A stretch of 64,000 bases of DNA from Escherichia coli. Lineage in GTDB: Bacteria > Pseudomonadota > Gammaproteobacteria > Enterobacterales > Enterobacteriaceae. Made by a program: the position numbers and the translations under genes. The stretch is taken from the NCBI RefSeq assembly GCF_050320075.1, contig NZ_CP190022.1; one strand, written 5' to 3'. Each line of letters starts with the position of its first letter. Within the stretch, counting starts at the first letter, position 1. The notes beneath the pieces were generated by a model. It was given only the letters and a program-made list of their open reading frames with translations. It was not told the DNA's origin and ran no database searches. Shown here one piece after another: positions 4,011 to 61,713 of this stretch.

Positions 4011-4862
4011 GTGATGAATCAGACTTTACCCACTGCTGACCTGAATACTGCCGGCACGACAGATGTTATTCCGTCTGTGGCTATCGACCGCATCATCGCG
4101 CAGCGTAACGAAGGTATTGCACTGTTCATGCAGGCGATGGAATGCCTGGCGACAGCGCGCAGGATTCTGCTCGATGCTTCCGGTGACATTTTTCTCTACG
4201 GGTTTGAAGACTGCGTGACTGATTCCGTTCGTCGCATGGATAAACCGGAAGAAGCGAAAAGGAATATCACCCGTCTTGCCGACCGGAAAATCTGGGACCG
4301 CCTGATGACAGATACGGGCATGTACACCTTCATGAGTTCATGCCAGCGTGATGAGTGGAACAGCCAGCTGATGAGCGACACCTGTCCTGAAATCATCCTG
4401 GACAATGTACTGGCAACATTCCGCCATCTGAATGCCAGCAAAATGCAGACATTTGAACAGGGACTGATTGATGTCTACCGGAAATTGTCATGGGATTACA
4501 GAACCAATAATCCCTGCCGTCTGGGCAAGAGAATCATTATTGAAAACCTGCTGTACCGCTGGAGTAACGGGCGTGTGACGCTGGACTGCAGCGGGCGGGA
4601 GGCACTGGATGACCTGGTACGTCCGTTTTATCTGCTGGATGGGCGCAACATTCCTGACTTCCGGAGCAGCATCGGGGCGCAGTATGGTGAATTTCTCGGG
4701 AACGGCGACAATGTCGGTAAGCTGTTAGAAGGGGAATATTTTACGGTGCGTGGCTACCAGAAAGGGACCGTACACATTGTCTTTAAGCGTTCTGACCTTG
4801 TTGAAAAACTGAATGATATTATTGCACGGCATTATCCTGGTGCATTGCCGCCACGAGTCTGA
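4011..4862 (+). CDS. Hypothetical leading-region protein, 283 aa (family not recognised with confidence)
   Basis: aggag RBS at 4001-4005, GTG 4011 / ATG 4014; preceded by Frpo-like repeat 2; followed by a hairpin with a T-run at 4875-4903. Confidence 0.55.
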   Translation: MMNQTLPTADLNTAGTTDVIPSVAIDRIIAQRNEGIALFMQAMECLATARRILLDASGDIFLYGFEDCVTDSVRRMDKPEEAKRNITRLADRKIWDRLMTDTGMYTFMSSCQRDEWNSQLMSDTCPEIILDNVLATFRHLNASKMQTFEQGLIDVYRKLSWDYRTNNPCRLGKRIIIENLLYRWSNGRVTLDCSGREALDDLVRPFYLLDGRNIPDFRSSIGAQYGEFLGNGDNVGKLLEGEYFTVRGYQKGTVHIVFKRSDLVEKLNDIIARHYPGALPPRV

Positions 4863-4947
4863 TTAAAAAGAAAAGCCCTGGTATTTATGCCGGGGCTTTT
4901 TTTTCTGTAATCATCATAATCTCAGAACATGATGTGACATTGTCACA

Positions 4948-5283
4948 TCAATTGTTGTTCATATCGATGCCATCTTTTCTGCCTGAATCTGTCTTTTTAG
5001 GTGCTGTTTTAGAGGAAGAACGGCGGGATGGTTTTTTCGATTCTGCTTCCCGAATAATGTCACGAAGTGCCTTCTCTCCTACTTCATACCCTGCATTTTT
5101 GAGCGTGTCACGAACATCTGCCAGTGTATAACCCTTTGTCCTTACCAGGACAATGATGTCATCACGAATGGCATCAAGAAAATCACGCAATGTTTTCCGT
5201 TGAGCGGTGAGGTCCGGCAATTCCGATAAGGCAGATTTTGCCAGCTGGATGTCATCATCTGAGTAAAATTTTTTAGAAGCCAT
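4948..5283 (-). CDS. Hypothetical protein (111 aa) with Lys/Ser/Pro-rich C-terminal tail, divergent from nikA
   Basis: ATG at 5283 with ggagag RBS; tail SKKPSRRSSSKTAPKKTDSGRK suggests nucleic-acid binding. Confidence 0.45.
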   Translation of the reverse strand: MASKKFYSDDDIQLAKSALSELPDLTAQRKTLRDFLDAIRDDIIVLVRTKGYTLADVRDTLKNAGYEVGEKALRDIIREAESKKPSRRSSSKTAPKKTDSGRKDGIDMNNN

Positions 5284-5859: not shown

Positions 5860-8580
5860 ATGAATGCCATTATTCCGCACAAAAGACGTGACGGCAGGTC
5901 TTCCTTTGAAGACCTGATTGCGTACACGTCTGTGCGGGATGATGTGCAGGAAAATGAGCTCACAGAAGACAGCGAAATCAAGAGTGATGTCCCTCACCGC
6001 AACCGTTTCAGACGGCTTGTTGATTATGCAACACGCCTGCGTAACGAAAAATTTGTCTCCCTGATTGATGTGATGAAAGACGGCAGTCAGTGGGTAAATT
6101 TCTATGGCGTAACCTGTTTCCATAACTGCAATTCACTGGAAACAGCTGCTGAAGAGATGCAGTACAAGGCGGACAAAGCTGTTTTTTCCCGTAATGATAC
6201 AGACCCCGTTTTCCACTACATTCTTTCCTGGCCTGCGCATGAAAGCCCGCGTCCTGAGCAGCTTTTTGACTGTGTGCGTCACACACTGAAATCTCTTGAA
6301 CTCTCAAAACATCAGTACGTGGCTGCCGTTCATACGGACACGGATAATCTGCATGTGCATGTTGCCGTGAATCGTGTACATCCTGAAACTGGTTATATTA
6401 ACTGGCTTTCCTGGAGCCAGGAAAAACTCAGTCGTGCATGCCGTGAACTTGAACTTAAGCACGGATTTGCGCCGGATAATGGCTGCTTTGTGCATGCACC
6501 CGGCAACCGTATTGTGCGCAAAACAGCGCTGGTACGTGAGCGCCGTAATGCCTGGCGACGCGGGAAAAAGCAGACGTTCAGGGAATATATTGCGCAGATG
6601 TCGATTGCCGGGCTGCGTGAAGAGCCCGCACAGGACTGGTTATCTTTGCATAAACGGCTGGCCAGTGATGGTCTGTATATCACGATGCAGGAAGGGGAAC
6701 TGGTGGTGAAGGATGGCTGGGACAGAGCGCGGGAAGGTGTTGCACTCAGTTCGTTCGGACCGTCATGGACAGCTGAAAAACTGGGGCGGAAACTGGGGGA
6801 ATATCAGCCTGTACCGACAGATATTTTCAGTCAGGTGGGGACACCCGGTCGTTATGATCCGGAAGCCATAAACGTGGATATCCGGCCGGAAAAAGTGGCA
6901 GAAACGGAGAGTCTGAAACAGTACGCCTGTCGTCACTTTGCTGAACGCTTACCGGAAATGGCGCGAAATGGTGAACTGAAAAGTTGCCTGGCTGTACACC
7001 GTACTCTGGCAGAGGCGGGATTATGGATGGGGATTCAGCACGGGCATCTGGTACTGCATGATGGATTTGATAAACAACAGACACCAGTACGTGCAGACAG
7101 TGTGTGGCCGTTAATGACGCTGGATTATATGCAGGATCTGGATGGTGGATGGCACTCTGTACCGAAGGATATTTTTACTCAGGTTATACCCGAAGAACGA
7201 TTCCGGGGACACAGTATTGGCACTCAGGCTGTCAGCGATTACGAATGGTATCGCATGAGGATGGGCACTGGTCCACAGGGTGCCATAAAGCGTGAACTGT
7301 TTTCCGATAAGGAAAGTCTGTGGGGATACGCTCTTATTCAGTGCAGGAGCCAGATTGAAGAGATGATAGCTGGCGGGGATTTCAGCTGGCAGGCATGTCA
7401 TGAGATGTTTGCGCGTAAAGGGCTTATGCTGCAGAAACAGCATCATGGTCTCGTGATTGTGGATGCGTTTAATCATGAACTGACACCGGTGAAGGCCAGC
7501 AGTATCCACCCGGATTTGACGTTATCCCGGGCCGAGCCTCAGGCCGGGCCATTTGAAATTGCGGCTGCAGATATTTTCGAACGGGTGAAGCCTGAATGTC
7601 GCTACAATCCGGAACTTGCTGCCAGTGATGAAGTGGAGCCCGGCTTCCGGCGCGATCCTGAGCTGCGTCGTGAGCGCCGTGAAGCCCGTGCAGCTGCGCG
7701 GGAAGATTTGCGTGCGCGTTATCTTGCATGGAAGGAACACTGGCGTAAACCCGATTTACGTTACGGCGAACGGTTGCGGGAAATTCATGCTGCCTGCCGT
7801 CGTCGCAAGGCTCATATCCGCGTGCAGTTCCGGGATCCACAATTGCGTAAACTGCATTACCATATTGCAGAAGTGCAACGTATGCAGGCGCTGATCAGAC
7901 TGAAGGAAAATGTCAGGGAAGAGCGACTGGCGCTGATGGCGGAGGGTAAGTGGTATCCGTTGTCCTACCGGCAGTGGGTGGAACAACAGGCGGCGCAAGG
8001 CGACAGAGCTGCAGTGTCACAGCTCCGAGGCTGGGATTATCGCGATCGTCGCTCGCGTAATAAGGATAAAAGACGCACAACTAATGCTGATCGTTGTGTC
8101 GTTCTCTGCGAACCCGGAGGAACGCCACTTTTTAATAATGTTGCAAAACTTGAAGCTCGTCTTCAGAAAAATGGAAGTGTTCATTTCAGGGATACGCGGA
8201 CAGGAAAAAATGTCTGTACGGATTACGGAGATCGGGTTGTGTTCTACCATCACACGGACCGAAATGAACTGGCAGAGAAGCTTGATTTAATTGCGCCAGT
8301 TCTGTTCAGCCGCAACGGAAAGCTTGGTTTTGAGCCGGAAGGTTCATACCAGCAGTTTAATGATGTGTTTGCAGAAATGGTGGCCTGGCACAATGCAGCG
8401 GGAATAACCGGAAACGGACACTTCACCATTACTCGTCCGGACGTGGATTTGCACCGTCAACGCAGTGAGCAGTATTACCGGGAATATATCAGACAGCAGA
8501 CCCGTTTATCGGAGAGCCATGATGATAATTATACGTTACGGCAGGAGAAAACATGGGAGCCACCATCACCTGGAATGTAA
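5860..8580 (+). CDS. nikB: NikB relaxase (MOBP family)
   Basis: 906 aa, start MNAIIPHKRRDG; relaxase His motif region HTDTDNLHVHVAVNRV; size and position as in R64. Confidence 0.85.
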   Translation: MNAIIPHKRRDGRSSFEDLIAYTSVRDDVQENELTEDSEIKSDVPHRNRFRRLVDYATRLRNEKFVSLIDVMKDGSQWVNFYGVTCFHNCNSLETAAEEMQYKADKAVFSRNDTDPVFHYILSWPAHESPRPEQLFDCVRHTLKSLELSKHQYVAAVHTDTDNLHVHVAVNRVHPETGYINWLSWSQEKLSRACRELELKHGFAPDNGCFVHAPGNRIVRKTALVRERRNAWRRGKKQTFREYIAQMSIAGLREEPAQDWLSLHKRLASDGLYITMQEGELVVKDGWDRAREGVALSSFGPSWTAEKLGRKLGEYQPVPTDIFSQVGTPGRYDPEAINVDIRPEKVAETESLKQYACRHFAERLPEMARNGELKSCLAVHRTLAEAGLWMGIQHGHLVLHDGFDKQQTPVRADSVWPLMTLDYMQDLDGGWHSVPKDIFTQVIPEERFRGHSIGTQAVSDYEWYRMRMGTGPQGAIKRELFSDKESLWGYALIQCRSQIEEMIAGGDFSWQACHEMFARKGLMLQKQHHGLVIVDAFNHELTPVKASSIHPDLTLSRAEPQAGPFEIAAADIFERVKPECRYNPELAASDEVEPGFRRDPELRRERREARAAAREDLRARYLAWKEHWRKPDLRYGERLREIHAACRRRKAHIRVQFRDPQLRKLHYHIAEVQRMQALIRLKENVREERLALMAEGKWYPLSYRQWVEQQAAQGDRAAVSQLRGWDYRDRRSRNKDKRRTTNADRCVVLCEPGGTPLFNNVAKLEARLQKNGSVHFRDTRTGKNVCTDYGDRVVFYHHTDRNELAEKLDLIAPVLFSRNGKLGFEPEGSYQQFNDVFAEMVAWHNAAGITGNGHFTITRPDVDLHRQRSEQYYREYIRQQTRLSESHDDNYTLRQEKTWEPPSPGM

Positions 8581-8799
8581 GCCCGGATAAGTGATGGTGC
8601 AAAGATTCAGCCCAAAAACGGCAGGAACCTTCGTCAATAAGGGCGGGAGTAGTCACTGAATTGAGTTTATACCCGGTTAACTCTGAATTAAGGGCCGTGT
8701 CTGCGGCCCTTATCCAGTGCGCCGTAAACCCCGGACTTAGTGAACAGGGTTTTACAGTCTGATTGACAGATATGGTCACCAGAAAATATTTGTATTCCT

Positions 8800-11100
8800 T
8801 CAGTATTTTTCGTCAGTTGTTGGTTGTGCTCCACATGATTTCTGGGGATGATCATTATTTATTGTCTGCGATTTATTATTTTCAGCGACCGGTAACAGTA
8901 TCTCCAGGGGGAGCAGGGTATTCAGAATCGCCTTCACTGAAGGTATATCTTCAGGACCGGAGTGTTCCTCTTCCGGACGATTCAGTGTGATATAACATAC
9001 CCGGCGTTCTTCCCTGGTTGTGTTATTGATAGTGTGCACAGCCTTTTTCCACAGTTCGTTTGCCCGGGATTCGATATCTGTATCATATTGCGGAAGCAGA
9101 TCCAGTGATGTCTGCGCTGTTGCCAACCGGCGCTGGAATGTATCAATGATACGGTAAGGCTCTGTACGGTTTTTACGACGTTTACGGGATGGTTTTGCTG
9201 TCAGTACACCAATAATGCTGCTGACATGCTCCGGTGTGGGAAAACGGCGCTGCACTGTCCTGGGGACAAGACGGCGGAGACGTTCCAGTCGGGGGGCTTC
9301 AACAGAGATATAACGGTTGATGACCACTGGATCACTGTCGCAACTTTTTTCGCTGTCCGGAATATACACAGAGGCTGACGGCACCACATCCCCCTGGAAA
9401 ACGGTAAAGAATTCACCGGCATTCAGTTTGATTAAATCCTGCACGTTGATTTTGCTTTCCATCTGGATTGTGATCTGGTTACCGTCCACCCAGGACTCTC
9501 CCATCACACCATCGTGGCGCTGCAGGCTGCCCATTCTGGCGCGGGCCTCTTCACCGGCGGCATTTTTCACCGTCCTTGCTGTTTTGTCGTCACTGACAAT
9601 GCGTCCGGCGAATTTGGTGCCGGCGTTCTGCATCAGCGTGGCGGTGTTGGTGGCAGAAGTCTGCCCTTCGATTCGCTCCTGATCCTGCGCCGTCATTATC
9701 AGGGAGAACTCCAGTGAACGTACCTGGGTGGCCTCCACTGCAATGCGGTCCGTGTAGTAGGCACCGACTTCGTCAAGGATACAGATATAGGGGAAGCGGC
9801 CTTTGTATTTTTTGACTTCCAGGGTCTGTGCATCTGTGCCTTCCAGGCGGTAGCCCAGGTCACGGGCGAGGATCATGCTCTGCTGGGTGATGAACATACG
9901 ACCGAGTGCCGACGTGGTATGGGCTGATGTGTCCAGTGCGGGGATCATCACAATCAGAATTCGGTCGCTGTGGATACTGTCGCGAATATCGATGTCGCCG
10001 GCATCTGCCGCAAAGACGTCCCCGAAGGTTTCGGCAAAGGTTGTGAACGTTTCCGAGAACTGACCGGAGAGATAAGCATGCTGTTTACGGGGCTCCTCAG
10101 TCCAGGCTGACGGCGTTCTCACCAGTGACATATCGAATCCCGGGACATCCTGCAGGTAGTTTCGCAGTGGTGCGATAGCTTCTTCCGGCCACTGGTCATC
10201 AAGGCCACGGCAATAGAGTTTTGCCATCCCTTCCAGCGTCATATGTTCCCGTAACATATGCAGGGACATGGTTTTACCTTCCCGGACGCACCAGAATTTT
10301 GTGCCAAAGACCAGGGCCTTGTTCATGGCTATCGCCCGTGACTGCCATTCTCCCCCCTGAACGTTCTGGGGCAGCATGGACTGCATGGTTTCGGCGGTGA
10401 AGGCTTCGGTGCTGAATGCGAACGGGTTCCAGGTGTTTGACTGTGGGCGGGATTTATCGCCACTCTGAATGACTTCACTGCGGGATTTTCCGCCGTTCAT
10501 GAAGTTGATGACCTCGATATCATCCTCCCGGCCAAAACGTCGGGAGAGATACCAGATTGTCCTCGTGGTATCGTTCTGTGCCTTTCCGTCAACAAAGGTA
10601 AAGCCTCTTCCCCAGCAGAGCGGGTTGAGCAGCCAGGCAAAGGTGGTTTCTGTTTTACCGCCACCGGTGGTGGAAAAAAATATGATATGCCGGGTGAGGT
10701 CATCCATGCTCAGCCAGAGCTCACGACCGATATCGTTGATACGGCGGTAACCGACATAAAAAATCCCCCGTGCGGGGGATGTTTCATCTGCTTCATACTG
10801 AAACAGGGTAGGCCAGAAGCTGAAGAGGCTTCGCCTGACCTTTCTGTCCTGGGAGGGGTCATCAAGGCTGAGCGTCATGGGCATACGCAGGGGGCATCGC
10901 CAGCGTTGCAGCGTGAATATCACGGAGGTGACCAGGGTGAACAGCAGACAGACAGGAAGGGCCAGTGGCCATATCAGGGCCGTAATGATACTGCCAGCCA
11001 GACACAGACCAATGATGTTCAGGTTGTGCAGTGCATTCCACAGCGGGTTTCCCCAGGCCGTGCGGTGTATGAGGTCAGGATTAACGTGATGCTGGCTCAT
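8800..11100 (-). CDS. trbC: TrbC, DotL/IcmO-like type IV coupling protein
   Basis: 766 aa; N-terminal TM helices; Walker A FSTTGGGKTE and Walker B ICILDEVG. Confidence 0.8.
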   Translation of the reverse strand: MSQHHVNPDLIHRTAWGNPLWNALHNLNIIGLCLAGSIITALIWPLALPVCLLFTLVTSVIFTLQRWRCPLRMPMTLSLDDPSQDRKVRRSLFSFWPTLFQYEADETSPARGIFYVGYRRINDIGRELWLSMDDLTRHIIFFSTTGGGKTETTFAWLLNPLCWGRGFTFVDGKAQNDTTRTIWYLSRRFGREDDIEVINFMNGGKSRSEVIQSGDKSRPQSNTWNPFAFSTEAFTAETMQSMLPQNVQGGEWQSRAIAMNKALVFGTKFWCVREGKTMSLHMLREHMTLEGMAKLYCRGLDDQWPEEAIAPLRNYLQDVPGFDMSLVRTPSAWTEEPRKQHAYLSGQFSETFTTFAETFGDVFAADAGDIDIRDSIHSDRILIVMIPALDTSAHTTSALGRMFITQQSMILARDLGYRLEGTDAQTLEVKKYKGRFPYICILDEVGAYYTDRIAVEATQVRSLEFSLIMTAQDQERIEGQTSATNTATLMQNAGTKFAGRIVSDDKTARTVKNAAGEEARARMGSLQRHDGVMGESWVDGNQITIQMESKINVQDLIKLNAGEFFTVFQGDVVPSASVYIPDSEKSCDSDPVVINRYISVEAPRLERLRRLVPRTVQRRFPTPEHVSSIIGVLTAKPSRKRRKNRTEPYRIIDTFQRRLATAQTSLDLLPQYDTDIESRANELWKKAVHTINNTTREERRVCYITLNRPEEEHSGPEDIPSVKAILNTLLPLEILLPVAENNKSQTINNDHPQKSCGAQPTTDEKY

Positions 11101-46322: not shown

Positions 46323-46384
46323 ATCTGCCTTCCACGATAAAAACGGGGAAGGTAGGAATAGTGAAACGGAAATGCAATATCGCC

Positions 46385-48758
46385 GTGCCAATCCGGTATC
46401 TGGACAACGACAAAAATGAACTTCACTACCAGTACATACAATATCGGGAAAAATACCGTAATCTGAGCATTGGCGTACATGCGTACTGCTCGTGGACATA
46501 CCTTAATGGCTCGCCTTTTGGTGGTTTTCAGCAGATATACGCCGACCAAAACAAGGTTTGGTATGTGAATAATTATGCGTGGGGAAATTATGAGTCCGGT
46601 GGCACAATTACAGTGACATGCCTCAACCTTCCTGGTGCCGGAATCTAACCAAAAGGGCAACAGTAAGCATCGACGTGCTCTTCATCAACACCATCTCCGA
46701 TGCCGTACATTCTTGTACCTGTCATGACGTACCCGGCAGGGCACTGAATCGGCTTGTAATAAATAGAACCTCCACTTCTGCCACCGATAAAATGTGCGGA
46801 GGTCGCTTCATACCATTTACAGGCAGAATAGTTCACTTTATTGCCTCCAAGCCACAAACCGGATTGGCACTGGCCTCCGTGCCAATCCGGTTCGTGGACA
46901 AGTAGCCAAAAGAAAGAACGTTTCACGGTATACGGAATAAGTGGATGTGGGCATACACCGTCCTATGCGGTATGTCCTGATGGCAGTGATTTAGTTTCTG
47001 GTGGGTATCAGTTAACGGCTTGGTCCCAGGATAACCGGAACCCGTTTAACTCACCAGACTCAAGTTACCCAGACTGGAATAATAAACGTTGGGTTGTCGG
47101 AGGTACCGGAACTATCACGAGCTGTTTCCGCTCAGTAGCTGTATGTGCCAGATAATGTGCGACAGAGCTTTCAACGGAAACAGTGAACAGTGATGTAATA
47201 GCTGCTATACAATGTGCCATTGTACGCACTCCAATTCATCTCGCCGTTTACATCTGGATTATCTGTCGGCCAGACTCTTGTCATTGCAGTTTCCTTTCCG
47301 TCTATACGATATGTATTAACGCAAAGTTTGAATTTTCCCAGAGCCTTCGTTGTGGTTGGGTACAAGGTGAAGGATGTTACTGATGTCCACGGCGCAGCAG
47401 AACCGATTGATTTCCACGAACCGGATTGGCACTGGCCTCCGTGCCAATCCGGTTCGTGGAAAAATGCAGGAAAAGGCGATATTGAAATCGTCAAAGTAAC
47501 AGCATCAAAACTCCGCTGGCCTGGTGCTACTGCCACCTGCCCAATGGGTAAGAAGGTGATCGGGGGTGGTGCAGAATGCAGCTCTGGAATTGGCTTTATC
47601 TGGCTTGTCCGTTCAATACCTGTAAACAATAATGCCTGGTATGGCTATTGCGATACGACAGAACACATCATTGGAAAAATAACTGTACATGCCATTTGCC
47701 AATGACAAAGTGATTTACTGGCAAACCACAATGTAACTACATTTCCCCGTCAGGTCGTTCCTGTTTGTACCGCCGTGAAAATTGTATTCATCGTAGTAAC
47801 CACACTTCACAATCCTGTTCGAATCATATGTCGCAACAGAACCTGCGAAGTAATTTGGCTTCCAGCCATGCGGGTTTTCAGCATTGCTGACGCTCCAGGT
47901 ACACTGGCTGGCAGAAAAACCAGACGGCAAAGGTAGTCGTTCTCCATTTGCGATTTTTCCTGTCAGAACAGTGCTACCTGATACCCTAATCCACGAACCG
48001 GATTGGCACTGGCCTCCGTGCCAATCCGGTGTGTGGGTTGGCTTTGAATCGGACCCTGTGGGAAGCCCTATCCCGTGGCCATCTGCCACTCCTCCACAAG
48101 GCTATCTGTTGATGAACGGCCAGTCGTTTTCCTGTTCCCGGTATCCTCAGCTTGCCCGTGCTTATCCTGGCTGTAAATTGCCCGATCTGCGCGGTGTTTT
48201 TATCCGTGGCTGGGATAACGGGAAGGGACTTGCATGGTGATCCACAGACAACTCCTGGTTATCAGGCCGATCAATCAGGCGTCTATCACGAACGTGGCGG
48301 ATGGCTGAAAGGGCATCATAGTTATGCCATACTGGGCACAGGGGAGTACCACATGTGAAATGCGTCCCAAAAATATTGCATTCAACTACATTGTTAAAGC
48401 CAGCTAGGGACTCACATCTGATAGGCATACACAGATAACACCGTTACCACAGGCGTAAATTTTGTGTTGGTCTGGAGATGATTTGATATGACGCTCCCAC
48501 TGGCACGGCAAATGAAATAAATGCTGTCTTTCCGTAGGAGGGGTTATTGCTGGCATTCATACCAATGAAAGCGCCGTTCACATAGCCCTGAAGATTTGAT
48601 GTGTTGGCGCAATCACCGCCACCGGCACCATTTCCACCGGAAGCGTACACAAACAAAGCCTGCCGTTATTTCTCCCGTTAAATGTTCCCCGGTGAGAACC
48701 CAGATTGCTGTAACTTCCGTCAGGTGCACCAATCGTTCGCCACACACCGGATTGGCAC
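46385..48758. mobile_element. Shufflon: four invertible segments bounded by 19-bp sfx repeats, carrying alternative PilV C-terminal ends on both strands
   Basis: sfx copies gtgccaatccgg(t/g)(a/t/g)(t/c)(c/g)tgg at about 46385, 46879, 47441, 48018 and inverted copies at about 46851, 47414, 47991, 48740; track ORFs on both strands begin with the repeat-encoded HEPDWHWPPCQSG / PDWHGGQCQSG. Confidence 0.8.
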
Positions 48759-52627: not shown

Positions 52628-54136
52628 TCAGTGCAGCAGCGTATAGCTGTCCTCATCGACGGGAGAGATGTAATGGGCCGCCAGCGGATCAACCTGTCCG
52701 CTGTTGATTTTTCCCAGCAGATGCTGATTACGGGTCATTCCGCCCAGTTCCCGGTGCCAGTAGGTTCTGGCCTCGATACGCCCCTTTTCCCGGTACAACT
52801 GGAAAAAACGCGCATCCGGGGAGATAACTTCTGCGATCACCGTTCGCCCCGTCACGCCACGCCAGCAGTGCGGGCAGCCGTCATGGTTTCGCAGATATAC
52901 CTGGTCCGGGTTACAGACGCTTTCCACCAGGCGCCGTTCATCATCCGTGCGCTCGGTAGCCACCTCATGCCAGGGGCGACGGCAGTGCGGACATATCAGC
53001 TGAACCAGACGCTGGCTCAGCAGGCCAATGAACAGTTGCGGGTCGGCAATCATCCTGGCCTGTACCCCCTCCATCTCAAGACGTTCGAGGATGTTAATCG
53101 GGTCGTTCGCATGAATGGTGGTCAGCATCAGATGGCCGGTCATGGCGGCTTTTATTGCCGTAATGGCGGAATCGTGGTCGCGGATTTCACCGTTCAGGAT
53201 CCCGTCGGGGTCAAGACGCAGTGCCGATTTGATGGAGTCCACCCAGCCCTGCGCGGTATCCATGACGGCGGTCTGAATGGCACCGGGTATACGGCCCTCT
53301 GGCGGGGATTCAATGGTGAACAGCCTGCGACGGGGCAGAAGAATACCGCCGGTATTGTTGAAGCCGTACTGTTCAAGGTACGCCGCAGAGGCGGTTCTCA
53401 GCGTGGTGGATTTTCCTGAGCCGGTGGGGCCTGAGAGCGTGATAATGCCTTCAGGGCGCTGCAGAATGCGGCGAAGAGTGCGCTCCTGGTCAGGGTGATA
53501 GCCCAGCATACTGAAGGTCGGGATTTGCTGACTGTCATCCTTGATCAGACGGAGCACAGCATAGAGGCCGCCCACACAGGGGTAGTGGGAGTAGCGTGCA
53601 CCAAACAGACCGGCCAGTTTCAGATACTGCTCTGAAAGACGTGCATCCTGAGGCACCCCGGGATCAAACTGTGTGCCCTTGATAACATCGGTCATGCCGG
53701 AATAGGTGGCCCCCAGTAATTCGAGGCCTTCTTCTTTCCGGAGGATATCGAGCACTTCCAGTTCGCCGTGAACCCGGGCTTCCACATAGGTGAAGTCCGT
53801 GTTGTCTCGTCCCGGGGTCATATGAAGGTCTGAGGCACCAAGAGAGGCAGAATGGCGGATATAGCCGAGCATTTTTTGCTGTACCGGGTTAATGACGCTT
53901 TCATCACCGGCGGTTGTGGTGTCCTGTCTGAGGCGGGCTATCACATCCAGGGTGGTGAATTCAAAGTCTCCCACACGCCCCTGATGACGTGCGCGCAGGC
54001 GGGTCAGATATTCCTGGACGGCACGCAGATGTTTTTTTCCCTCCACGACCCTGACCCGCAGATGACCGGTTTTATCTGTGTCGATAGCCACATAATCCAG
54101 AATGTCATCCGGTGGCAGGTCTGCAGGATCCAACAT
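52628..54136 (-). CDS. pilQ: PilQ pilus assembly ATPase (GspE/PilB family)
   Basis: aaggagg RBS; Walker A SGPTGSGKSTTL; Cys tetrad CPHC...CPHC. Confidence 0.85.
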   Translation of the reverse strand: MLDPADLPPDDILDYVAIDTDKTGHLRVRVVEGKKHLRAVQEYLTRLRARHQGRVGDFEFTTLDVIARLRQDTTTAGDESVINPVQQKMLGYIRHSASLGASDLHMTPGRDNTDFTYVEARVHGELEVLDILRKEEGLELLGATYSGMTDVIKGTQFDPGVPQDARLSEQYLKLAGLFGARYSHYPCVGGLYAVLRLIKDDSQQIPTFSMLGYHPDQERTLRRILQRPEGIITLSGPTGSGKSTTLRTASAAYLEQYGFNNTGGILLPRRRLFTIESPPEGRIPGAIQTAVMDTAQGWVDSIKSALRLDPDGILNGEIRDHDSAITAIKAAMTGHLMLTTIHANDPINILERLEMEGVQARMIADPQLFIGLLSQRLVQLICPHCRRPWHEVATERTDDERRLVESVCNPDQVYLRNHDGCPHCWRGVTGRTVIAEVISPDARFFQLYREKGRIEARTYWHRELGGMTRNQHLLGKINSGQVDPLAAHYISPVDEDSYTLLH

Positions 54137-54232
54137 AAGGCCTCCTTACGGGCAGCGGCGCCCGGAAAATATGTTTTCTGTTATTAAGCGAGGGAAATAA
54201 TCAGTTCTTCTGCGGAGAGAATCTGGACATTT

Positions 54233-54907
54233 TCAGCACAGGCTTAACAGTGTAAAAATGATTACGCCTCCAAAAGCGAATAACAGGGGAATGTTTTTCT
54301 CCGGCTGTGTTGATCTCAGCGTTAATACCGGTGTGGCGAGAGCGTAAAAAATAATACCTGCGGTATAAATAAAATAAGGTGTGATGCCGGACAGATTACA
54401 TACACTGGCGAATATCATAAGCATGACGGCAACTACCGATAAAATAATGGAAGTATTCTTCCATTCACCAGATGGTGTAAGTGAAATGATATCGCCATCC
54501 TGTTTATAGTTCGTGTTCAGCTTCAGGAAATGACGGATATCTTTCAGCGTGTTCAGTTTCTGCTGGATCTCTTCCACAAGTTCCTGTCTGTCGGTTTTTT
54601 CACGGAGCAGCTGGAATTTTGTCTCCCTCAGTACAGATATAATACGGTCCACCTGGCCGGGGGAGGGATAGTAATGATGTTCGAGCATCCACCGGATATC
54701 GGCGATTAACCGGTCAGTTACCGGTGTATTACCGTTGTTAATGAGAGGTGTTTCGTGCATCCACTGAAATATGCGGTAGATATGTTGCTTAACAAAAATA
54801 AAATCATCGGTGGTTTTATTCTCCAGCATGAGATATATCCCGTCGAGTGTTAATAATAAAACGTCCCGGGTGTGAGGTGATTTGTGATGTATTGTACGGA
54901 ATATCAT
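54233..54907 (-). CDS. Hypothetical membrane protein (224 aa) between pilP and pilQ
   Basis: Soluble N-terminal ~140 aa then three hydrophobic helices; lower GC than flanking pil genes. Confidence 0.45.
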   Translation of the reverse strand: MIFRTIHHKSPHTRDVLLLTLDGIYLMLENKTTDDFIFVKQHIYRIFQWMHETPLINNGNTPVTDRLIADIRWMLEHHYYPSPGQVDRIISVLRETKFQLLREKTDRQELVEEIQQKLNTLKDIRHFLKLNTNYKQDGDIISLTPSGEWKNTSIILSVVAVMLMIFASVCNLSGITPYFIYTAGIIFYALATPVLTLRSTQPEKNIPLLFAFGGVIIFTLLSLC

Positions 54908-54924
54908 TTCTGCACTGTAATCGT

Positions 54925-55479
54925 TTACGCAGGTGATATATCACACCAGAGTAAATACAGCGGAATGAAGCTGTAGAGTGACCAGAAAAGCCCGACGGGA
55001 TCTTTTGCCCACAGGCATAAGAATGTCAGTCCGGTGCACCATGCGCCGGCAAGTGCCGCGCATAATTCAGCGCCTCCGGAATTGCCGCTCTTCATCATAT
55101 AACAGAGCGCGATCAGCAGTGGGATAATGAAGACGAGCGGCAGGACAAAGGATTCGGCTGCGGATATCCATTCCCGGTAACGCCAGCGGTCGTTTAATCT
55201 GTCGGCATCATATTTCAGACAGTTGCTCAGGAACGCCAGATCGTTCATGAGGGGGGCGTCCTGGCCATACTGCGCCGCGAGGCGCATTCTGGCACCCCAC
55301 AACCGGGCACTCAGGGCACGGAGTTGTGCCGGGGTGACCTGTTTTCCCCGACAAAGTTGTACCTGTAATTGTGTTGCCTCGTGGACAATATCTGTGTGGT
55401 TCACCCCATATTCTGCAGCGGCTGTTTCCAGGTCACGGATGATCAGGCTGAGCCAGGATATCAGTTCACTGATGTTCAT
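54925..55479 (-). CDS. Hypothetical membrane protein (184 aa) between pilP and pilQ
   Basis: Soluble N-terminal ~100 aa then hydrophobic helices; same architecture as its neighbour. Confidence 0.45.
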   Translation of the reverse strand: MNISELISWLSLIIRDLETAAAEYGVNHTDIVHEATQLQVQLCRGKQVTPAQLRALSARLWGARMRLAAQYGQDAPLMNDLAFLSNCLKYDADRLNDRWRYREWISAAESFVLPLVFIIPLLIALCYMMKSGNSGGAELCAALAGAWCTGLTFLCLWAKDPVGLFWSLYSFIPLYLLWCDISPA

Positions 55480-55527
55480 TGTCGTTCATCCTTTTGTACG
55501 GACAGCCGCCTGTACTGGCGGCCGGTT

Positions 55528-55980
55528 TCATGGTCGCAGGGTTTTTCTGATGCCGGACTGCTCCAGTACCACACTGTCCGGTGTGATTTTCTCCACGAGA
55601 TAAGGGGTTCCGGGGATGTTCTGGCCCGTCTTCACATCGGTGATGTGTCCACCCGAAAGTTCTATCCGGGCGCTCAGCTGAGGCTGTACACCAAATATTT
55701 CTGTCAGACGGGGGGATGTCGCCGTCGACGGGGCAGTCGGGATGGCGGACGTGCTTTCCTGCGGACGACCGGGCTCTGCGGGAATACCCTGCTCCAGCAT
55801 GCGCAGTTCATGACGGATTTTCTCTCTCGCCAGCATGGCTTCATACAGGGCTGTTTCGTCCTGTATCCGCTCAATCTGCAGTTGCCGGGGACTCTGTTCC
55901 TCTGCGTTTCCGGTTGTGGCCATTGCCGTTGCCGGTAACAGCAGCGCTGAAACCAGAAGGGCTTTTGTTTTAGCGTGCAT
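55528..55980 (-). CDS. pilP: PilP periplasmic pilus biogenesis protein
   Basis: 150 aa with signal peptide MHAKTKALLVSALLLPATAMA. Confidence 0.55.
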   Translation of the reverse strand: MHAKTKALLVSALLLPATAMATTGNAEEQSPRQLQIERIQDETALYEAMLAREKIRHELRMLEQGIPAEPGRPQESTSAIPTAPSTATSPRLTEIFGVQPQLSARIELSGGHITDVKTGQNIPGTPYLVEKITPDSVVLEQSGIRKTLRP

Positions 55981-59377: not shown

Positions 59378-60448
59378 TTATTCCTGCGGACGGTCTGTCA
59401 CCCGCAGCAGACATTGTGCTGTACTGGTCCGGGCATACAGCGGTTTTTCTGCCGGGGTGTAGAGTGCGAAGAGCTGCTCCAGCGCCTGGCGGAAACTGCC
59501 GGTGAAAACCAGAGGAGCATCGATGCTGTAGTTGACAGGTGTTTCCCAGCGCAGTGTCCATGTGCCGTGCGGGCATTTTTCGGATGATGTCCAGCGGGCC
59601 AGTCCGTCTTTCAGGGTGGTCCCCTTTTCCATTTTCCATTGCCGTGGCGGTATGACCTTCTGCGGTGGTGGCACTACCGGTTTCGTGGCCACCGGGGCTG
59701 GCGTGGTTGTTCTGCTCTCTGGTGTTCCGGATGCCCCGGTGGTGGTCTGAGCCCGGGATACGCTGACGGCAGGTGTCACTGGTGTCGGGCCTGCCGGCGT
59801 TGCGGTGCTGCCCCTGAACGGATTACGCGGTGTATCAGCAGCTTTCTGTGAACCCTGCGGTGCCGTGACGTCGACCGGCGGTGTTGCAGAGGTCGTGACA
59901 GTCAGTATTTTCCTGTTCCAGTCCATATGTCCGTAAAGCTGCTGGCCGGCCAGCAGCGCATTCAGTGCCCGGTGCCACTGGTCATTAACGGACCAGGAAG
60001 GGAGGCGTTTGTTCAGTGCCGGTGTGGCGGCATTCTGCTGGCGGAACTGCCAGCCGGTTGGCAGCAGCTGGCGTATCCAGTCACTGACGGTGCGCTGACG
60101 TGCTTCACGTAAATAAACGACGGATGAGGGACCGGGCTTACCGGTCATAACCAGTGCAGACAGCGGTGTGGCCTGAAGAAGCGGGCGGGGAGGCAGTGCG
60201 GTACTCTGGCTGCTGACAGTGGTTGAGGGTGTCGCCGTTGTTGTCGGACGGGGCGGTGTCACAGGGCGGGTCACCGGTGGCGGAAGCAGACGTTTTTGCG
60301 TATGGGTGATAATGGCAGCACTTTCGCGAATTTGTCCGTCGACGAACACCAGAGCCGGAGGCGTGGTGTCAGGAACAGGCGTGGCATTAAATGCCGTACA
60401 GCCGCTGAGTAATGACGGCAGAAGGAGTGTCAGTGATTTCTTTTGCAT
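59378..60448 (-). CDS. pilL: PilL lipoprotein
   Basis: 356 aa; lipobox LLSGC; Pro/Thr-rich linkers. Confidence 0.6.
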   Translation of the reverse strand: MQKKSLTLLLPSLLSGCTAFNATPVPDTTPPALVFVDGQIRESAAIITHTQKRLLPPPVTRPVTPPRPTTTATPSTTVSSQSTALPPRPLLQATPLSALVMTGKPGPSSVVYLREARQRTVSDWIRQLLPTGWQFRQQNAATPALNKRLPSWSVNDQWHRALNALLAGQQLYGHMDWNRKILTVTTSATPPVDVTAPQGSQKAADTPRNPFRGSTATPAGPTPVTPAVSVSRAQTTTGASGTPESRTTTPAPVATKPVVPPPQKVIPPRQWKMEKGTTLKDGLARWTSSEKCPHGTWTLRWETPVNYSIDAPLVFTGSFRQALEQLFALYTPAEKPLYARTSTAQCLLRVTDRPQE

Positions 60449-60510
60449 AGAATATAATCCGGTATATTACGGGTTACGGTATAAGACAGGTGGCGGGTAA
60501 CTGGCCTTAA

Positions 60511-60828
60511 GTGGAACTGCTCAGGAAAATGATGACAGATTCATTATTAGGGTGCTCAGTAGGATATGTGTTTTCGAAAATACTGAAGATATCCTTTCTG
60601 CGTTTTATTCAGTCTGAGGGGGGATGGGATATTATTACTTACTTTTTGTGGATGCTGGGAATGCTTATTGTCATGGCCGTGCTGTTTATCTGGATGTGCG
60701 CCGCTGTATGCTATGAGCTTCGGATGTATAAAATAAAAACAGGAAGGGAGAACGATATATTATTCTGGGTGTGGATTCTTCTTTTTGATGTCGCGGTTGT
60801 ATTTTCGCTGGGTAATGTTATCTGGTGA
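60511..60828 (+). CDS. Hypothetical small membrane protein (105 aa), low GC
   Basis: Two hydrophobic helices; stop codon directly abuts the stop of the convergent minus-strand ORF. Confidence 0.35.
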   Translation: MELLRKMMTDSLLGCSVGYVFSKILKISFLRFIQSEGGWDIITYFLWMLGMLIVMAVLFIWMCAAVCYELRMYKIKTGRENDILFWVWILLFDVAVVFSLGNVIW

Positions 60829-61260
60829 TTATGGGTTCAGTGACATATGGAAAAAGATAAGTGCGAACATTGATACTGAAGAATAATATATCCACGAATA
60901 GAAAAACATGAATTTCGGAGATGGTTTCTTCTGTCTCCTGTTTTTCAGGGGAGTCTGTGGGTCAAATGTTATCAGCGTCATTAAAGGATACCCTTTCATA
61001 AGAATAAAAATATAGACGCATAAATGAACGTAAAGAGGTAACCTGTCCTGCCAGAACAGAATCATCATGATGACGGCAAGATGAAATGTCGTTACATTGA
61101 TATAATAAAACCAGCTGTATTTACGCAGATACTGTTGGATATTCACGCTGTCAGCATGCGGTTCTGGTGAACAATTTATGCAAAAACAGAAGAAAGAAAT
61201 GATGATGAACACGGTCAGAGTGACCGGTAATACAGTCACAAGCAGAAAGAGTATGGACAT
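60829..61260 (-). CDS. Hypothetical polytopic membrane protein (143 aa), low GC
   Basis: Four hydrophobic segments; occupies the position upstream of pilL. Confidence 0.4.
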   Translation of the reverse strand: MSILFLLVTVLPVTLTVFIIISFFCFCINCSPEPHADSVNIQQYLRKYSWFYYINVTTFHLAVIMMILFWQDRLPLYVHLCVYIFILMKGYPLMTLITFDPQTPLKNRRQKKPSPKFMFFYSWIYYSSVSMFALIFFHMSLNP

Positions 61261-61332
61261 AAAAATATCTCCGTCAGGATAGTGTGATTATTCCTTTATG
61301 GTTCCATAACCCGGCGTAGCTCCGTCGACTGG

Positions 61333-61713
61333 TTATAATTTTATCCGGGACCTGGCTTTAAGGGGTAATGCCACCTCTTTCCATTCACTACAGCTTCCGG
61401 GAATACGTTCTGTGCGTCGTATTATTCGTGTGTTCTGGCATACAATAATCAGGGCATTGTCTGCCGTCTGAAAAGGCATAATCGCAATGTTAATATCTTC
61501 TGTTGCCGGGATACAGATGACTTTCTTTTCACATGTATTGGTGTATATGACAACTCTGAATTTTTCTGCGGACATTTTCAATCCTCTTTTAAACCAGAAT
61601 ATCCCGTGAGGGCATTCTTTGTGAAAAAGTTCTGTGGACTTCTCTATGACGGCAGGTAATGCATCCAGCAGGGCAAGACGGAAGCGGAGGCTGGTCTGCT
61701 CATCCGAAAGCAC
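61333..61713 (-). CDS. Hypothetical protein (126 aa)
   Basis: ORF between the regulator genes and the pil operon. Confidence 0.35.
   Translation of the reverse strand: MLSDEQTSLRFRLALLDALPAVIEKSTELFHKECPHGIFWFKRGLKMSAEKFRVVIYTNTCEKKVICIPATEDINIAIMPFQTADNALIIVCQNTRIIRRTERIPGSCSEWKEVALPLKARSRIKL

What the first reader, a model, noticed from the sequence alone, without database searches (positions are those of the whole stretch)
54233..55479. Two membrane proteins apparently inserted between pilP and pilQ
The ORFs from pilL to pilV follow the R64 thin-pilus order and sizes as I recall them, except for two extra same-strand ORFs (184 and 224 aa) between pilP and pilQ. Both have a soluble N-terminal domain followed by 2-3 C-terminal TM helices, and the 224-aa gene is visibly lower in GC than its neighbours. 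A paired-membrane-protein module inside a pilus operon could be an exclusion, immunity or abortive-type function. A 12-bp palindrome gtgatatatcac sits at the 3-prime end of the 184-aa ORF.
Basis: partly seen in the sequence, partly recalled or inferred. Interest (0 to 1): 0.65.

Follow-up and report, generated by a model that had tools for sequence, protein, structure and literature searches.

The report
Portable membrane-protein pair inside pilus operon
Two real but uncharacterised, related inner-membrane protein genes were inserted between pilP and pilQ of this IncK2 plasmid; they are the core of a small gene cassette that turns up only inside conjugation-machinery operons of enterobacterial plasmids and chromosomal islands, and nothing is known about what it does.

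Summary
The window is an IncK2 plasmid. Its thin-pilus operon follows the R64 order except for about 1.3 kb (about 54172-55479, minus strand) between pilP and pilQ. That stretch carries ORF-A (184 aa) and ORF-C (the 224 aa listed is the longest ORF; the likely product is 198 aa). In R64 and in related IncZ-type plasmids pilP and pilQ are adjacent.

- **Genes:** both are under purifying selection (dN/dS 0.58 and 0.25) and are distant paralogs (hhalign 97%). Each has a four-helix N-terminal domain and three transmembrane helices.
- **Known families:** there are no matches in Pfam, NCBIfam, PADLOC, PHROGs, PDB or by fold search. Only 29 clusters match among 1.84 billion representatives.
- **Wider cassette:** the pair is the core of a cassette A-[B]-C, where B is an opposite-strand membrane protein that is often lost and is absent here. 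The cassette sits between traU and trbC in some F-type plasmids, in an I-type tra operon, and in the pil operon of chromosomal ICE-like islands.
- **Dispensability:** F and R64 lack it, so it is not needed for conjugation.
- **Function:** unknown. My best guess, at low confidence, is a conflict or protection role at the inner membrane, expressed together with the pilus.
the 12-bp palindrome is chance. The low GC of ORF-C is a family trait.

The parts
54925..55479 (-). ORF-A, 184 aa. N-terminal four-helix bundle (residues 3-99), inferred cytoplasmic, plus three TM helices (105-130, 134-157, 161-181). Conserved motifs are GKxVTPAQLR, RWxYREW and KDPVGLFWSLYSFIPLY.
   Evidence: ORF and RefSeq CDS WP_062894345. 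An AAGGA ribosome-binding site lies 9 nt upstream. Family alignment A2. AF2 model pLDDT 77.5. dN/dS 0.58, bootstrap range 0.37-0.84, against the other B-less copy L026.
54233..54829 (-). ORF-C, 198 aa (the ORF stays open upstream to 54907, which gives 224 aa). It is a distant paralog of A. It has a helical N-terminal domain with the motifs WMLxHHYYPSPGQVD and LKDIRxFL, plus three TM helices.
   Evidence: hhalign of A2 against A3 gives probability 97.4%, E 1.3e-11 over 132 columns. Reciprocal HMM cross-hits. dN/dS 0.25, range 0.16-0.41. GC 43.0%.
54830..54924 (-). A-C spacer (95 nt). This is the position where the opposite-strand gene B sits in other copies of the cassette. No B remnant is recognisable here.
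   Evidence: Alignment to the B-containing ICE copy L006 shows about 700 nt missing. The spacer is homologous to that of the B-less ICE copy L026.
55480..55527 (-). pilP-to-A junction. It holds the native intergenic hairpin GCCGCC-N6-GGCGGC (55505-55522) and the sequence AAAAGGATGAACGACA. Both are shared with empty sites, so the inserted DNA begins at or next to the ATG of A.
   Evidence: Alignment with the empty sites L003 and L004 and with L002 and L006; sequence.
54137..54232 (-). C-to-pilQ junction. Homology with empty sites resumes at TATTTTCCGGGC (from 54171) and includes the pilQ ribosome-binding site GTAAGGAGG. About 54172-54232 belongs to the insert.
   Evidence: The ICE copies carry this pilQ leader, with a mutated pilQ start, as a flank. 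This shows they derive from a copy located between pilP and pilQ.
54933..54944 (.). The 12-bp palindrome GTGATATATCAC inside the 3' end of ORF-A. It is not part of any functional feature.
   Evidence: 13 such palindromes in the window against 15.6 expected. It is not conserved in L006.
55528..55980 (-). pilP, the upstream neighbour.
   Evidence: TIGR03021 E 5e-31.
52628..54136 (-). pilQ, the pilus ATPase and downstream neighbour. Unless it has a promoter of its own, it must be transcribed through the insert.
   Evidence: GspE/PilB-type ATPase hits. IncK2 plasmids mate in liquid (PMC6803427).

Best explanation
SHOWN.
- ORF-A and ORF-C are genuine genes under purifying selection. They encode two paralogous membrane proteins.
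- They are the core of a small accessory cassette, A-[B]-C. B is a membrane protein with about four predicted TM helices and an alpha/beta C-terminal domain, encoded on the opposite strand.
- In every context long enough to read, the cassette lies inside a conjugation-machinery operon of Enterobacterales. These are F-type tra operons (always between traU and trbC), I-type (Dot/Icm-like) tra operons, and type IVb pil operons of ICE-like islands and IncK2 plasmids.
- In the IncK2 lineage a B-less copy of about 1.3 kb was inserted into the pilP-pilQ spacer and became fixed.
- The cassette is absent from F, R64 and most I-complex plasmids, so it is not a pilus or T4SS assembly component.

INFERRED.
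- The N-terminal domains are cytoplasmic, because there is no signal peptide.
- A and C are read as part of the pil transcript. They have the same orientation and short gaps, and pilQ lies downstream. They are therefore made when the pilus is made.
- As an always-paired paralog set they probably form a hetero-oligomer in the inner membrane.

MY COMMITMENT ON MECHANISM (about 0.3 on its own). The pair does not depend on a particular machine and has a conflict or protection role. It would guard the inner membrane of piliated donor cells against invaders that exploit conjugative pili, such as pilus-specific phages or incoming DNA. B would be an optional antagonist or regulator expressed against the operon's direction.
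For: - Insertion: empty sites in R64, L003 and L004, and junction alignments.
- Fixation in IncK2: 113 plasmids have PilP at >=95% identity and 113 have A at >=95%. The cassette matches in 96 of 5426 complete E. coli genomes, counting IncK2 copies, chromosomal copies and short remnants.
- Real genes: homologs at 24-91% identity with conserved motifs; dN/dS below 1, also between the two B-less copies.
- Paralogy.
- Cassette and contexts: ICE-like pil operon; F-type traU-trbC slot in E. coli, Salmonella, Klebsiella and Enterobacter; I-type operons. In plasmids, 164 of 165 A-positive and 82 of 85 B-positive records are typed conjugative.
- Dispensable: F has traU and trbC 8 nt apart, and R64 lacks A and C.
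- Liquid mating of IncK2 plasmids works (PMC6803427), so the insert does not block the downstream pil genes.
- Points that favour a conflict-type role: portability between three unrelated machines; patchy gain, loss and replacement, including a RelE/ParE cassette in the same slot with a remnant of A beside it; and fast evolution of A's soluble domain (dN/dS 0.74).
Against: - No homology of any kind to known defence, exclusion, toxin-antitoxin or immunity proteins.
- Co-transcription, membrane topology and A-C interaction are not demonstrated.
- The promoter and terminator scans are uninformative.
- Two contexts (L020, L025) are contigs too short to judge.
- Defence genes are not usually embedded in transfer operons.
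- A dN/dS of 0.58 for A could equally mean relaxed constraint.
Confidence: 0.6

Rival explanations
1. Orphan immunity or antitoxin pair. B would be a membrane toxin or addiction factor, and A and C its neutralisers. The window would then carry what is left after the toxin gene was lost.
For: - B is the part that is repeatedly lost or broken while A and C stay intact. It is absent in IncK2, L014 and L026, frameshifted in L008, and matched in two or three separate pieces, consistent with frameshifts, in several E. coli F-type plasmids.
- B is on the opposite strand, so its expression is uncoupled from, or opposed to, that of A and C.
- A bona fide RelE/ParE cassette occupies the same slot in sister plasmids.
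Against: - A and C stay under purifying selection over dS of about 0.4-0.5 in lineages that share the B-less spacer. A pure antitoxin should decay after the toxin is lost.
- In L016, C is truncated while B is intact.
- B resembles no known toxin.
- B has no signal peptide, so immunity against B made by other cells is not needed.
Confidence: 0.13
2. Accessory assembly or stress-buffering factor for the transfer apparatus. It could act as a membrane chaperone for the pilin pool, or as a modulator of the envelope-stress (Cpx/sigma-32) response triggered by pilus or T4SS assembly.
For: - It is strictly located inside pilus and T4SS operons, in the operon's orientation.
- It is an inner-membrane protein pair.
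- IncK2 plasmids, the only I-complex lineage with the pair fixed, raise sigma-32 more than IncK1 plasmids do, and this depends on a functional transfer system. They also keep transferring better at 42 C (PMC6803427).
Against: - The same cassette serves three mechanistically different machines (F-type T4SS, I-type T4SS, type IVb pilus). That argues against a specific partner.
- It is absent from the well-functioning F and R64 systems.
- It is frequently degraded or replaced.
- The sigma-32 link is only a correlation at lineage level.
Confidence: 0.15
3. Functionless or purely selfish passenger DNA. The ORFs would persist only because they are linked to a successful plasmid lineage.
For: - No known domain.
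- The family is tiny: 29 clusters among 1.84 billion representatives.
- IncK2 copies are 98-100% identical, so their conservation within the lineage says little.
Against: - dN/dS is below 1 for both genes across lineages.
- Motifs and three-gene synteny are kept down to 24-35% amino-acid identity across genera and machine types.
- The reading frames are intact in nearly all copies.
Confidence: 0.07

Closest known systems
Non-essential passenger genes of the F tra operon (trbA, artA, trbE, trbJ and similar), especially the antisense gene artA
   Same: They are small, mostly membrane-associated, dispensable genes interspersed among essential transfer genes. artA, like B, is encoded on the opposite strand inside the operon.
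   Different: HMM searches of A, B and C against the F tra region found nothing, including ArtA. The cassette is absent from F, and it moves between different kinds of machine.
R64 (IncI1) TraD, a small membrane protein of unknown function encoded next to the pil operon
   Same: There is weak similarity to the central cytoplasmic part of B, including B's invariant SHLL motif. Both have N-terminal TM helices followed by a soluble domain.
   Different: The signal is only 13-14 bits and hhalign probability 67% over 68 columns. The conserved C-terminal YGGKTRYRLFS...HPNGF motif of B is missing. TraD relates to B, which the window lacks. This is a lead, not a membership.
Entry-exclusion proteins of conjugative elements (F TraS, SXT/R391 Eex, IncI ExcA)
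   Same: They are small inner-membrane proteins encoded within transfer regions, dispensable for transfer, variable between relatives, and protective for the donor.
   Different: There is no sequence or profile similarity. Exclusion proteins are tied to one cognate T4SS component and have a fixed locus. This cassette hops between F-type, I-type and type IVb pilus operons.
RelE/ParE toxin-antitoxin cassette in the same pilP-pilQ slot of sister IncK2/Z-typed plasmids (for example NZ_CP075699.1)
   Same: It has the same insertion slot. It is flanked by a 5' remnant of A and by about 25 nt of the shared right flank. It is an accessory two-gene module unrelated to pilus assembly.
   Different: The proteins are unrelated and soluble, and they lie on the opposite strand. 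It replaced most of A and C rather than being homologous to them.

Membership tests
R64-type thin-pilus (pilI-pilV) biogenesis genes | A homolog is present in the R64 pil operon, or the protein matches a Pil family profile. | tested here: not met
   R64 pilP and pilQ are adjacent. HMMs of A and C find nothing in the R64 tra/pil region. There are no NCBIfam or Pfam Pil hits.
R64-type thin-pilus (pilI-pilV) biogenesis genes | The gene is required for thin-pilus formation or liquid mating. | not testable with these tools
   There is only indirect evidence. R64 and IncZ-type relatives lack the genes, so the pair cannot be a general requirement of the machine.
Known anti-phage defence systems (PADLOC-DB 2.0) | A profile match to any defence-system protein. 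| tested here: not met
   Zero families at E up to 0.5-1 for A, B, C and their F-type homologs.
Toxin-antitoxin or abortive-infection families (Pfam/NCBIfam) | A profile match to a toxin, antitoxin or Abi domain. | tested here: not met
   nothing below E = 0.01.
Toxin-antitoxin or abortive-infection families (Pfam/NCBIfam) | One partner is toxic and the other neutralises it. | not testable with these tools
   This needs expression experiments.
Entry/surface-exclusion proteins (TraS, TraT, ExcA, Eex) | Sequence or profile similarity, and a position at the exclusion locus of the transfer region. | tested here: not met
   No Pfam or NCBIfam hit. No HMM similarity to F TraS/TraT or R64 ExcA. The position is different.
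A-[B]-C conjugation-operon cassette (family defined here) | Two paralogous proteins, each with a four-helix domain plus three TM helices, in the operon's orientation. | tested here: met
A-[B]-C conjugation-operon cassette (family defined here) | Location inside a conjugative pilus or T4SS operon. | tested here: met
   The window's pil operon.
A-[B]-C conjugation-operon cassette (family defined here) | An opposite-strand gene B lies between A and C. | tested here: not met
   B is absent from the window. The same B-less form occurs in L014 and L026.

The most novel reading that the evidence does not exclude
A-[B]-C is a previously unrecognised, self-contained inner-membrane system. It is plugged into whatever conjugative pilus or T4SS operon it lands in, so that it is expressed only in transfer-competent cells. 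There it protects or modulates the donor, for example by blocking entry of pilus-dependent phages or by tuning the envelope-stress response. The antisense gene B would act as its built-in antagonist or switch. The IncK2-specific copy could contribute to this lineage's distinctive stress and transfer behaviour at 42 C.
Probability: 0.3. Interest if true: 0.75.

Novelty: categorically new. Interest (0 to 1): 0.55.

Why it matters
IncK2 plasmids are major carriers of blaCMY-2 in poultry and humans. The pair is fixed in that lineage and absent from IncK1, IncI1 and most other I-complex plasmids, so it is a candidate for lineage-specific behaviour. One example is the transfer-dependent rise in sigma-32 and the better transfer at 42 C reported in PMC6803427.

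More generally, the same cassette has been captured by three different kinds of conjugation machinery in E. coli, Salmonella, Klebsiella, Enterobacter and an unidentified genome (GCA_008011745.1). That points to a function tied to being a piliated donor, not to any one machine. No such portable module has been described. Its proteins have no Pfam or NCBIfam family and no structural relatives.

A defined function, whether phage protection, stress control or addiction, would add a new accessory layer to conjugation biology. The hypotheses can be tested directly with simple deletions.

Tried and rejected
Searches that found nothing useful:
- Pfam, NCBIfam, PADLOC and PHROGs scans of A, B, C and their F-type homologs gave nothing significant.
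- PDB profile searches gave only noise.
- Foldseek of the A model against AFDB50 returned only uncharacterised family members.
- An Rfam scan of the interval found no RNA family.
- Promoter and terminator scans gave counts near the shuffle expectation. They neither show nor exclude co-transcription.
- The literature search turned up no paper mentioning these ORFs or their accessions. It covered IncK2 genomics, the TraDIS study of I-complex plasmids and the comparative studies of F-like plasmids.

Ideas rejected:
- The palindrome as a functional site. It is chance and is not conserved.
- Low GC of ORF-C as evidence of separate acquisition. It is a family trait, and pilS and pilT are equally low.
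- The 224-aa start.
- A mobile-element mechanism. There is no IS, integrase or clear target duplication at the junctions, only possible 7-8 nt microhomology.

Not attempted: a genome-wide or metagenome-wide locus scan. I judged it not worth its cost given the contexts already in hand.

Full report
**1. What is there**

The window matches the IncK2/Z-typed E. coli plasmid pLH50-c-A (NZ_CP100501.1) at 100% identity over the tested stretch.

On the minus strand the thin-pilus operon runs in this order:
- pilL (59378-60448), pilM, pilN and pilO
- pilP (55528-55980)
- ORF-A (54925-55479, 184 aa)
- ORF-C (54233-54829, 198 aa; open upstream to 54907, which gives 224 aa)
- pilQ (52628-54136), pilR, pilS, pilT, pilU, and pilV with its shufflon

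The 198-aa start for ORF-C is the one used by RefSeq and by every homolog.

Both proteins have a helical N-terminal domain of about 100-125 residues followed by three hydrophobic helices. The evidence is hydropathy scans and an AlphaFold model of A with pLDDT 77.5. That model has four N-terminal helices (residues 3-99) and TM helices at 105-130, 134-157 and 161-181. Neither protein has a signal peptide, so I infer that the N-terminal domains are cytoplasmic.

**2. It is an insertion**

In R64, pilP and pilQ are 10 nt apart. In IncZ-type relatives (L003, L004) they are 84 nt apart with nothing between them.

Aligning the junctions shows two things:
- The native spacer, a hairpin GCCGCC-N6-GGCGGC followed by AAAAGGATGAA(A/C)GACA, runs up to the ATG of A.
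- Homology resumes at TATTTTCCGGGC, ahead of the pilQ ribosome-binding site.

The insert is therefore about 1.3 kb (about 54172-55479). There is no IS, recombinase or clear target duplication, only a possible 7-8 nt microhomology.

A search with PilP finds 977 plasmids. Exactly 113 of them have the IncK2-type PilP (>=95% identity), and exactly 113 have A at >=95%. So the pair appears fixed in that lineage and absent from the rest of the I-complex. One sister group is the exception. There a RelE/ParE cassette sits in the same slot, next to a 5' remnant of A and a shared right flank.

Among complete E. coli genomes, 96 of 5426 have a match to the cassette, counting IncK2 copies, chromosomal copies and short remnants. 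These give 99 places on plasmids and 11 on chromosomes.

**3. The genes are real and related to each other**

Homologs exist only in Enterobacterales:
- 17 clusters for A and 5 for C in the 5.8-billion-protein set.
- 29 clusters among 1.84 billion representatives when searching with an A profile.

Motifs are conserved down to about 24% identity. A profile-profile comparison shows that A and C are distant paralogs: probability 97.4%, E 1.3e-11, 132 columns. Reciprocal HMM hits confirm this.

dN/dS values:

| Gene | Against the ICE copies | Comment |
|---|---|---|
| A | 0.58-0.60 (bootstrap 0.37-0.84) | soluble domain 0.74 |
| C | 0.24-0.25 (bootstrap 0.16-0.41) | comparable to pilP, pilO and pilQ (0.16-0.27) |

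**4. The pair is the core of a wider cassette**

*ICE-like islands.* In E. coli chromosomal ICE-like islands (integrase, TraI_2 relaxase, pil operon with shufflon), the pair lies between pilO and pilP. It is flanked there by a duplicated pilO-3'/pilP-5' segment. It still carries the pilP-pilQ hairpin on one side and the pilQ leader, with a mutated start, on the other. These copies therefore descend from a copy located between pilP and pilQ, like the one in the window.

Most ICE copies have a third gene, B, between A and C on the opposite strand. B is about 235-276 aa, with several TM helices followed by a soluble domain. That domain carries the invariant motifs SHLL and LN(L)RYGGKTRYRLFS..HPNGF.

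*F-type plasmids.* The same trio A -> B <- C, at 24-45% identity, sits between traU and trbC in F-type plasmids of E. coli, Salmonella, Klebsiella and Enterobacter. In F itself traU and trbC are 8 nt apart.

*I-type operons.* More distant members of the A/C superfamily occur in two I-type settings. One lies between pilV and traH of an I-type element. Another lies inside a Dot/Icm-like I-type tra operon, next to a divergent B homolog (E 1e-20) and a second A/C paralog.

*Association with conjugation.* Of the plasmids that hold A, 164 of 165 are typed conjugative. Of those that hold B, 82 of 85 are.

*Loss of B.* B is polymorphic:
- absent in IncK2, in one F-type locus (L014) and in one ICE (L026);
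- frameshifted in L008, and matched in two or three separate pieces, consistent with frameshifts, in several E. coli F-type plasmids.

The B-less spacers of the window and of L026 are homologous. The purifying selection measured between these two copies therefore operated without B. A and C have a function that does not require B.

**5. What it is not**

There is no significant hit in Pfam, NCBIfam, PADLOC or PHROGs or in the PDB by sequence. Fold searches gave only generic helix bundles or uncharacterised relatives. No Rfam family matches the interval. A, B and C have no counterpart in the tra/pil regions of F or R64, apart from a weak B-TraD resemblance.

The cassette is missing from the fully functional F and R64 systems, and IncK2 plasmids mate in liquid (PMC6803427). 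So it is neither required for pilus function nor disruptive to it.

I found no paper that mentions these genes.

**6. How it most likely works**

Shown: a portable, dispensable, selected membrane-protein pair (plus an optional antisense partner) that lies inside a transfer operon in every context long enough to read.

Inferred:
- co-transcription with the pilus genes;
- an A-C hetero-oligomer in the inner membrane;
- cytoplasmic N-terminal domains.

The cassette works in the context of three unrelated machines, is patchily gained, lost and replaced, and has a fast-evolving soluble domain in A. I therefore favour a conflict or protection function that does not depend on a particular machine and is coupled to piliation, for example against pilus-dependent phages or incoming DNA at the inner-membrane step. 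I put this mechanism at only about 0.3.

The rivals are:
- an orphan immunity pair left after loss of a toxic B;
- an envelope-stress or assembly modulator. This is interesting because of the IncK2-specific, transfer-dependent sigma-32 increase reported in PMC6803427;
- a functionless passenger.

Each has a simple experimental test, listed under next steps.

**7. Verdict**

The feature is a real, uncharacterised family with no detectable relative among known systems. I rate it categorically new in the sense of distance from known kinds. Interest is moderate (0.55) because the function is still unknown.

Noticed in passing
L002 (NZ_CP075699.1) 4428-5207; the same slot as window 54172-55479: In sister IncK2/Z-typed plasmids the pilP-pilQ slot holds a RelE/ParE toxin-antitoxin pair on the opposite strand. 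Next to it is a 72-92 aa remnant of ORF-A. The slot behaves as a cargo hot spot inside the pil operon.
   Followed up: partly
L005-L008, L015, L026 (E. coli chromosomal ICE-like islands), e.g. L006 9620-12060: The cassette sits between pilO and pilP, flanked by a duplicated pilO-3'/pilP-5' segment (a truncated 34-codon pilP' upstream and an intact pilP downstream). It also carries relic flanks from a pilP-pilQ spacer. This is a footprint of illegitimate or homologous recombination between pil operons.
   Followed up: partly
L023 (R64) 46350-46916: R64 TraD is a small membrane protein of unknown function. It shows weak similarity to the central part of B, including the SHLL motif (14 bits; hhalign probability 67%). 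The window has no traD: pilI directly follows the traC-like gene.
   Followed up: partly
L009 11963-12253, L014 9325-9627, L016 4167-4499: A fourth conserved small membrane ORF ('D', 96-110 aa, 34-73% identity between loci) follows C in the E. coli and Salmonella F-type copies. It is absent from the pil-operon copies.
   Followed up: partly
window 60449-61470: R64 has pilJ and pilK between pilL and pilI. This plasmid instead has a 1.0-kb low-GC (40.6%) stretch there. It holds unrelated hydrophobic ORFs: 60511-60828 on the plus strand (105 aa) and 60829-61260 on the minus strand (143 aa). RefSeq annotates only one plus-strand hypothetical protein here.
   Followed up: no
window 46841-48430: Several overlapping ORFs on both strands share the peptide HxPDWHWPPCQSGSW. 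These are the expected shufflon segments that supply alternative PilV C-termini, next to the rci recombinase.
   Followed up: no
L024 (GCA_008011745.1) 7280-10181: In a Dot/Icm-like I-type tra operon, a divergent B homolog lies head-to-head with an A/C-family gene. It is followed by a 272-aa second paralog and possibly a third (9849-10181, E 1e-4). The family may have expanded there.
   Followed up: partly
L020 (GCA_009115805.1) 428-2533: A divergent A-like and C-like pair lies on a 2.9-kb contig. It is preceded by a 174-aa protein that looks to me, from its sequence alone, like a PD-(D/E)xK nuclease. The context is too short to tell whether this is a conjugation locus.
   Followed up: no
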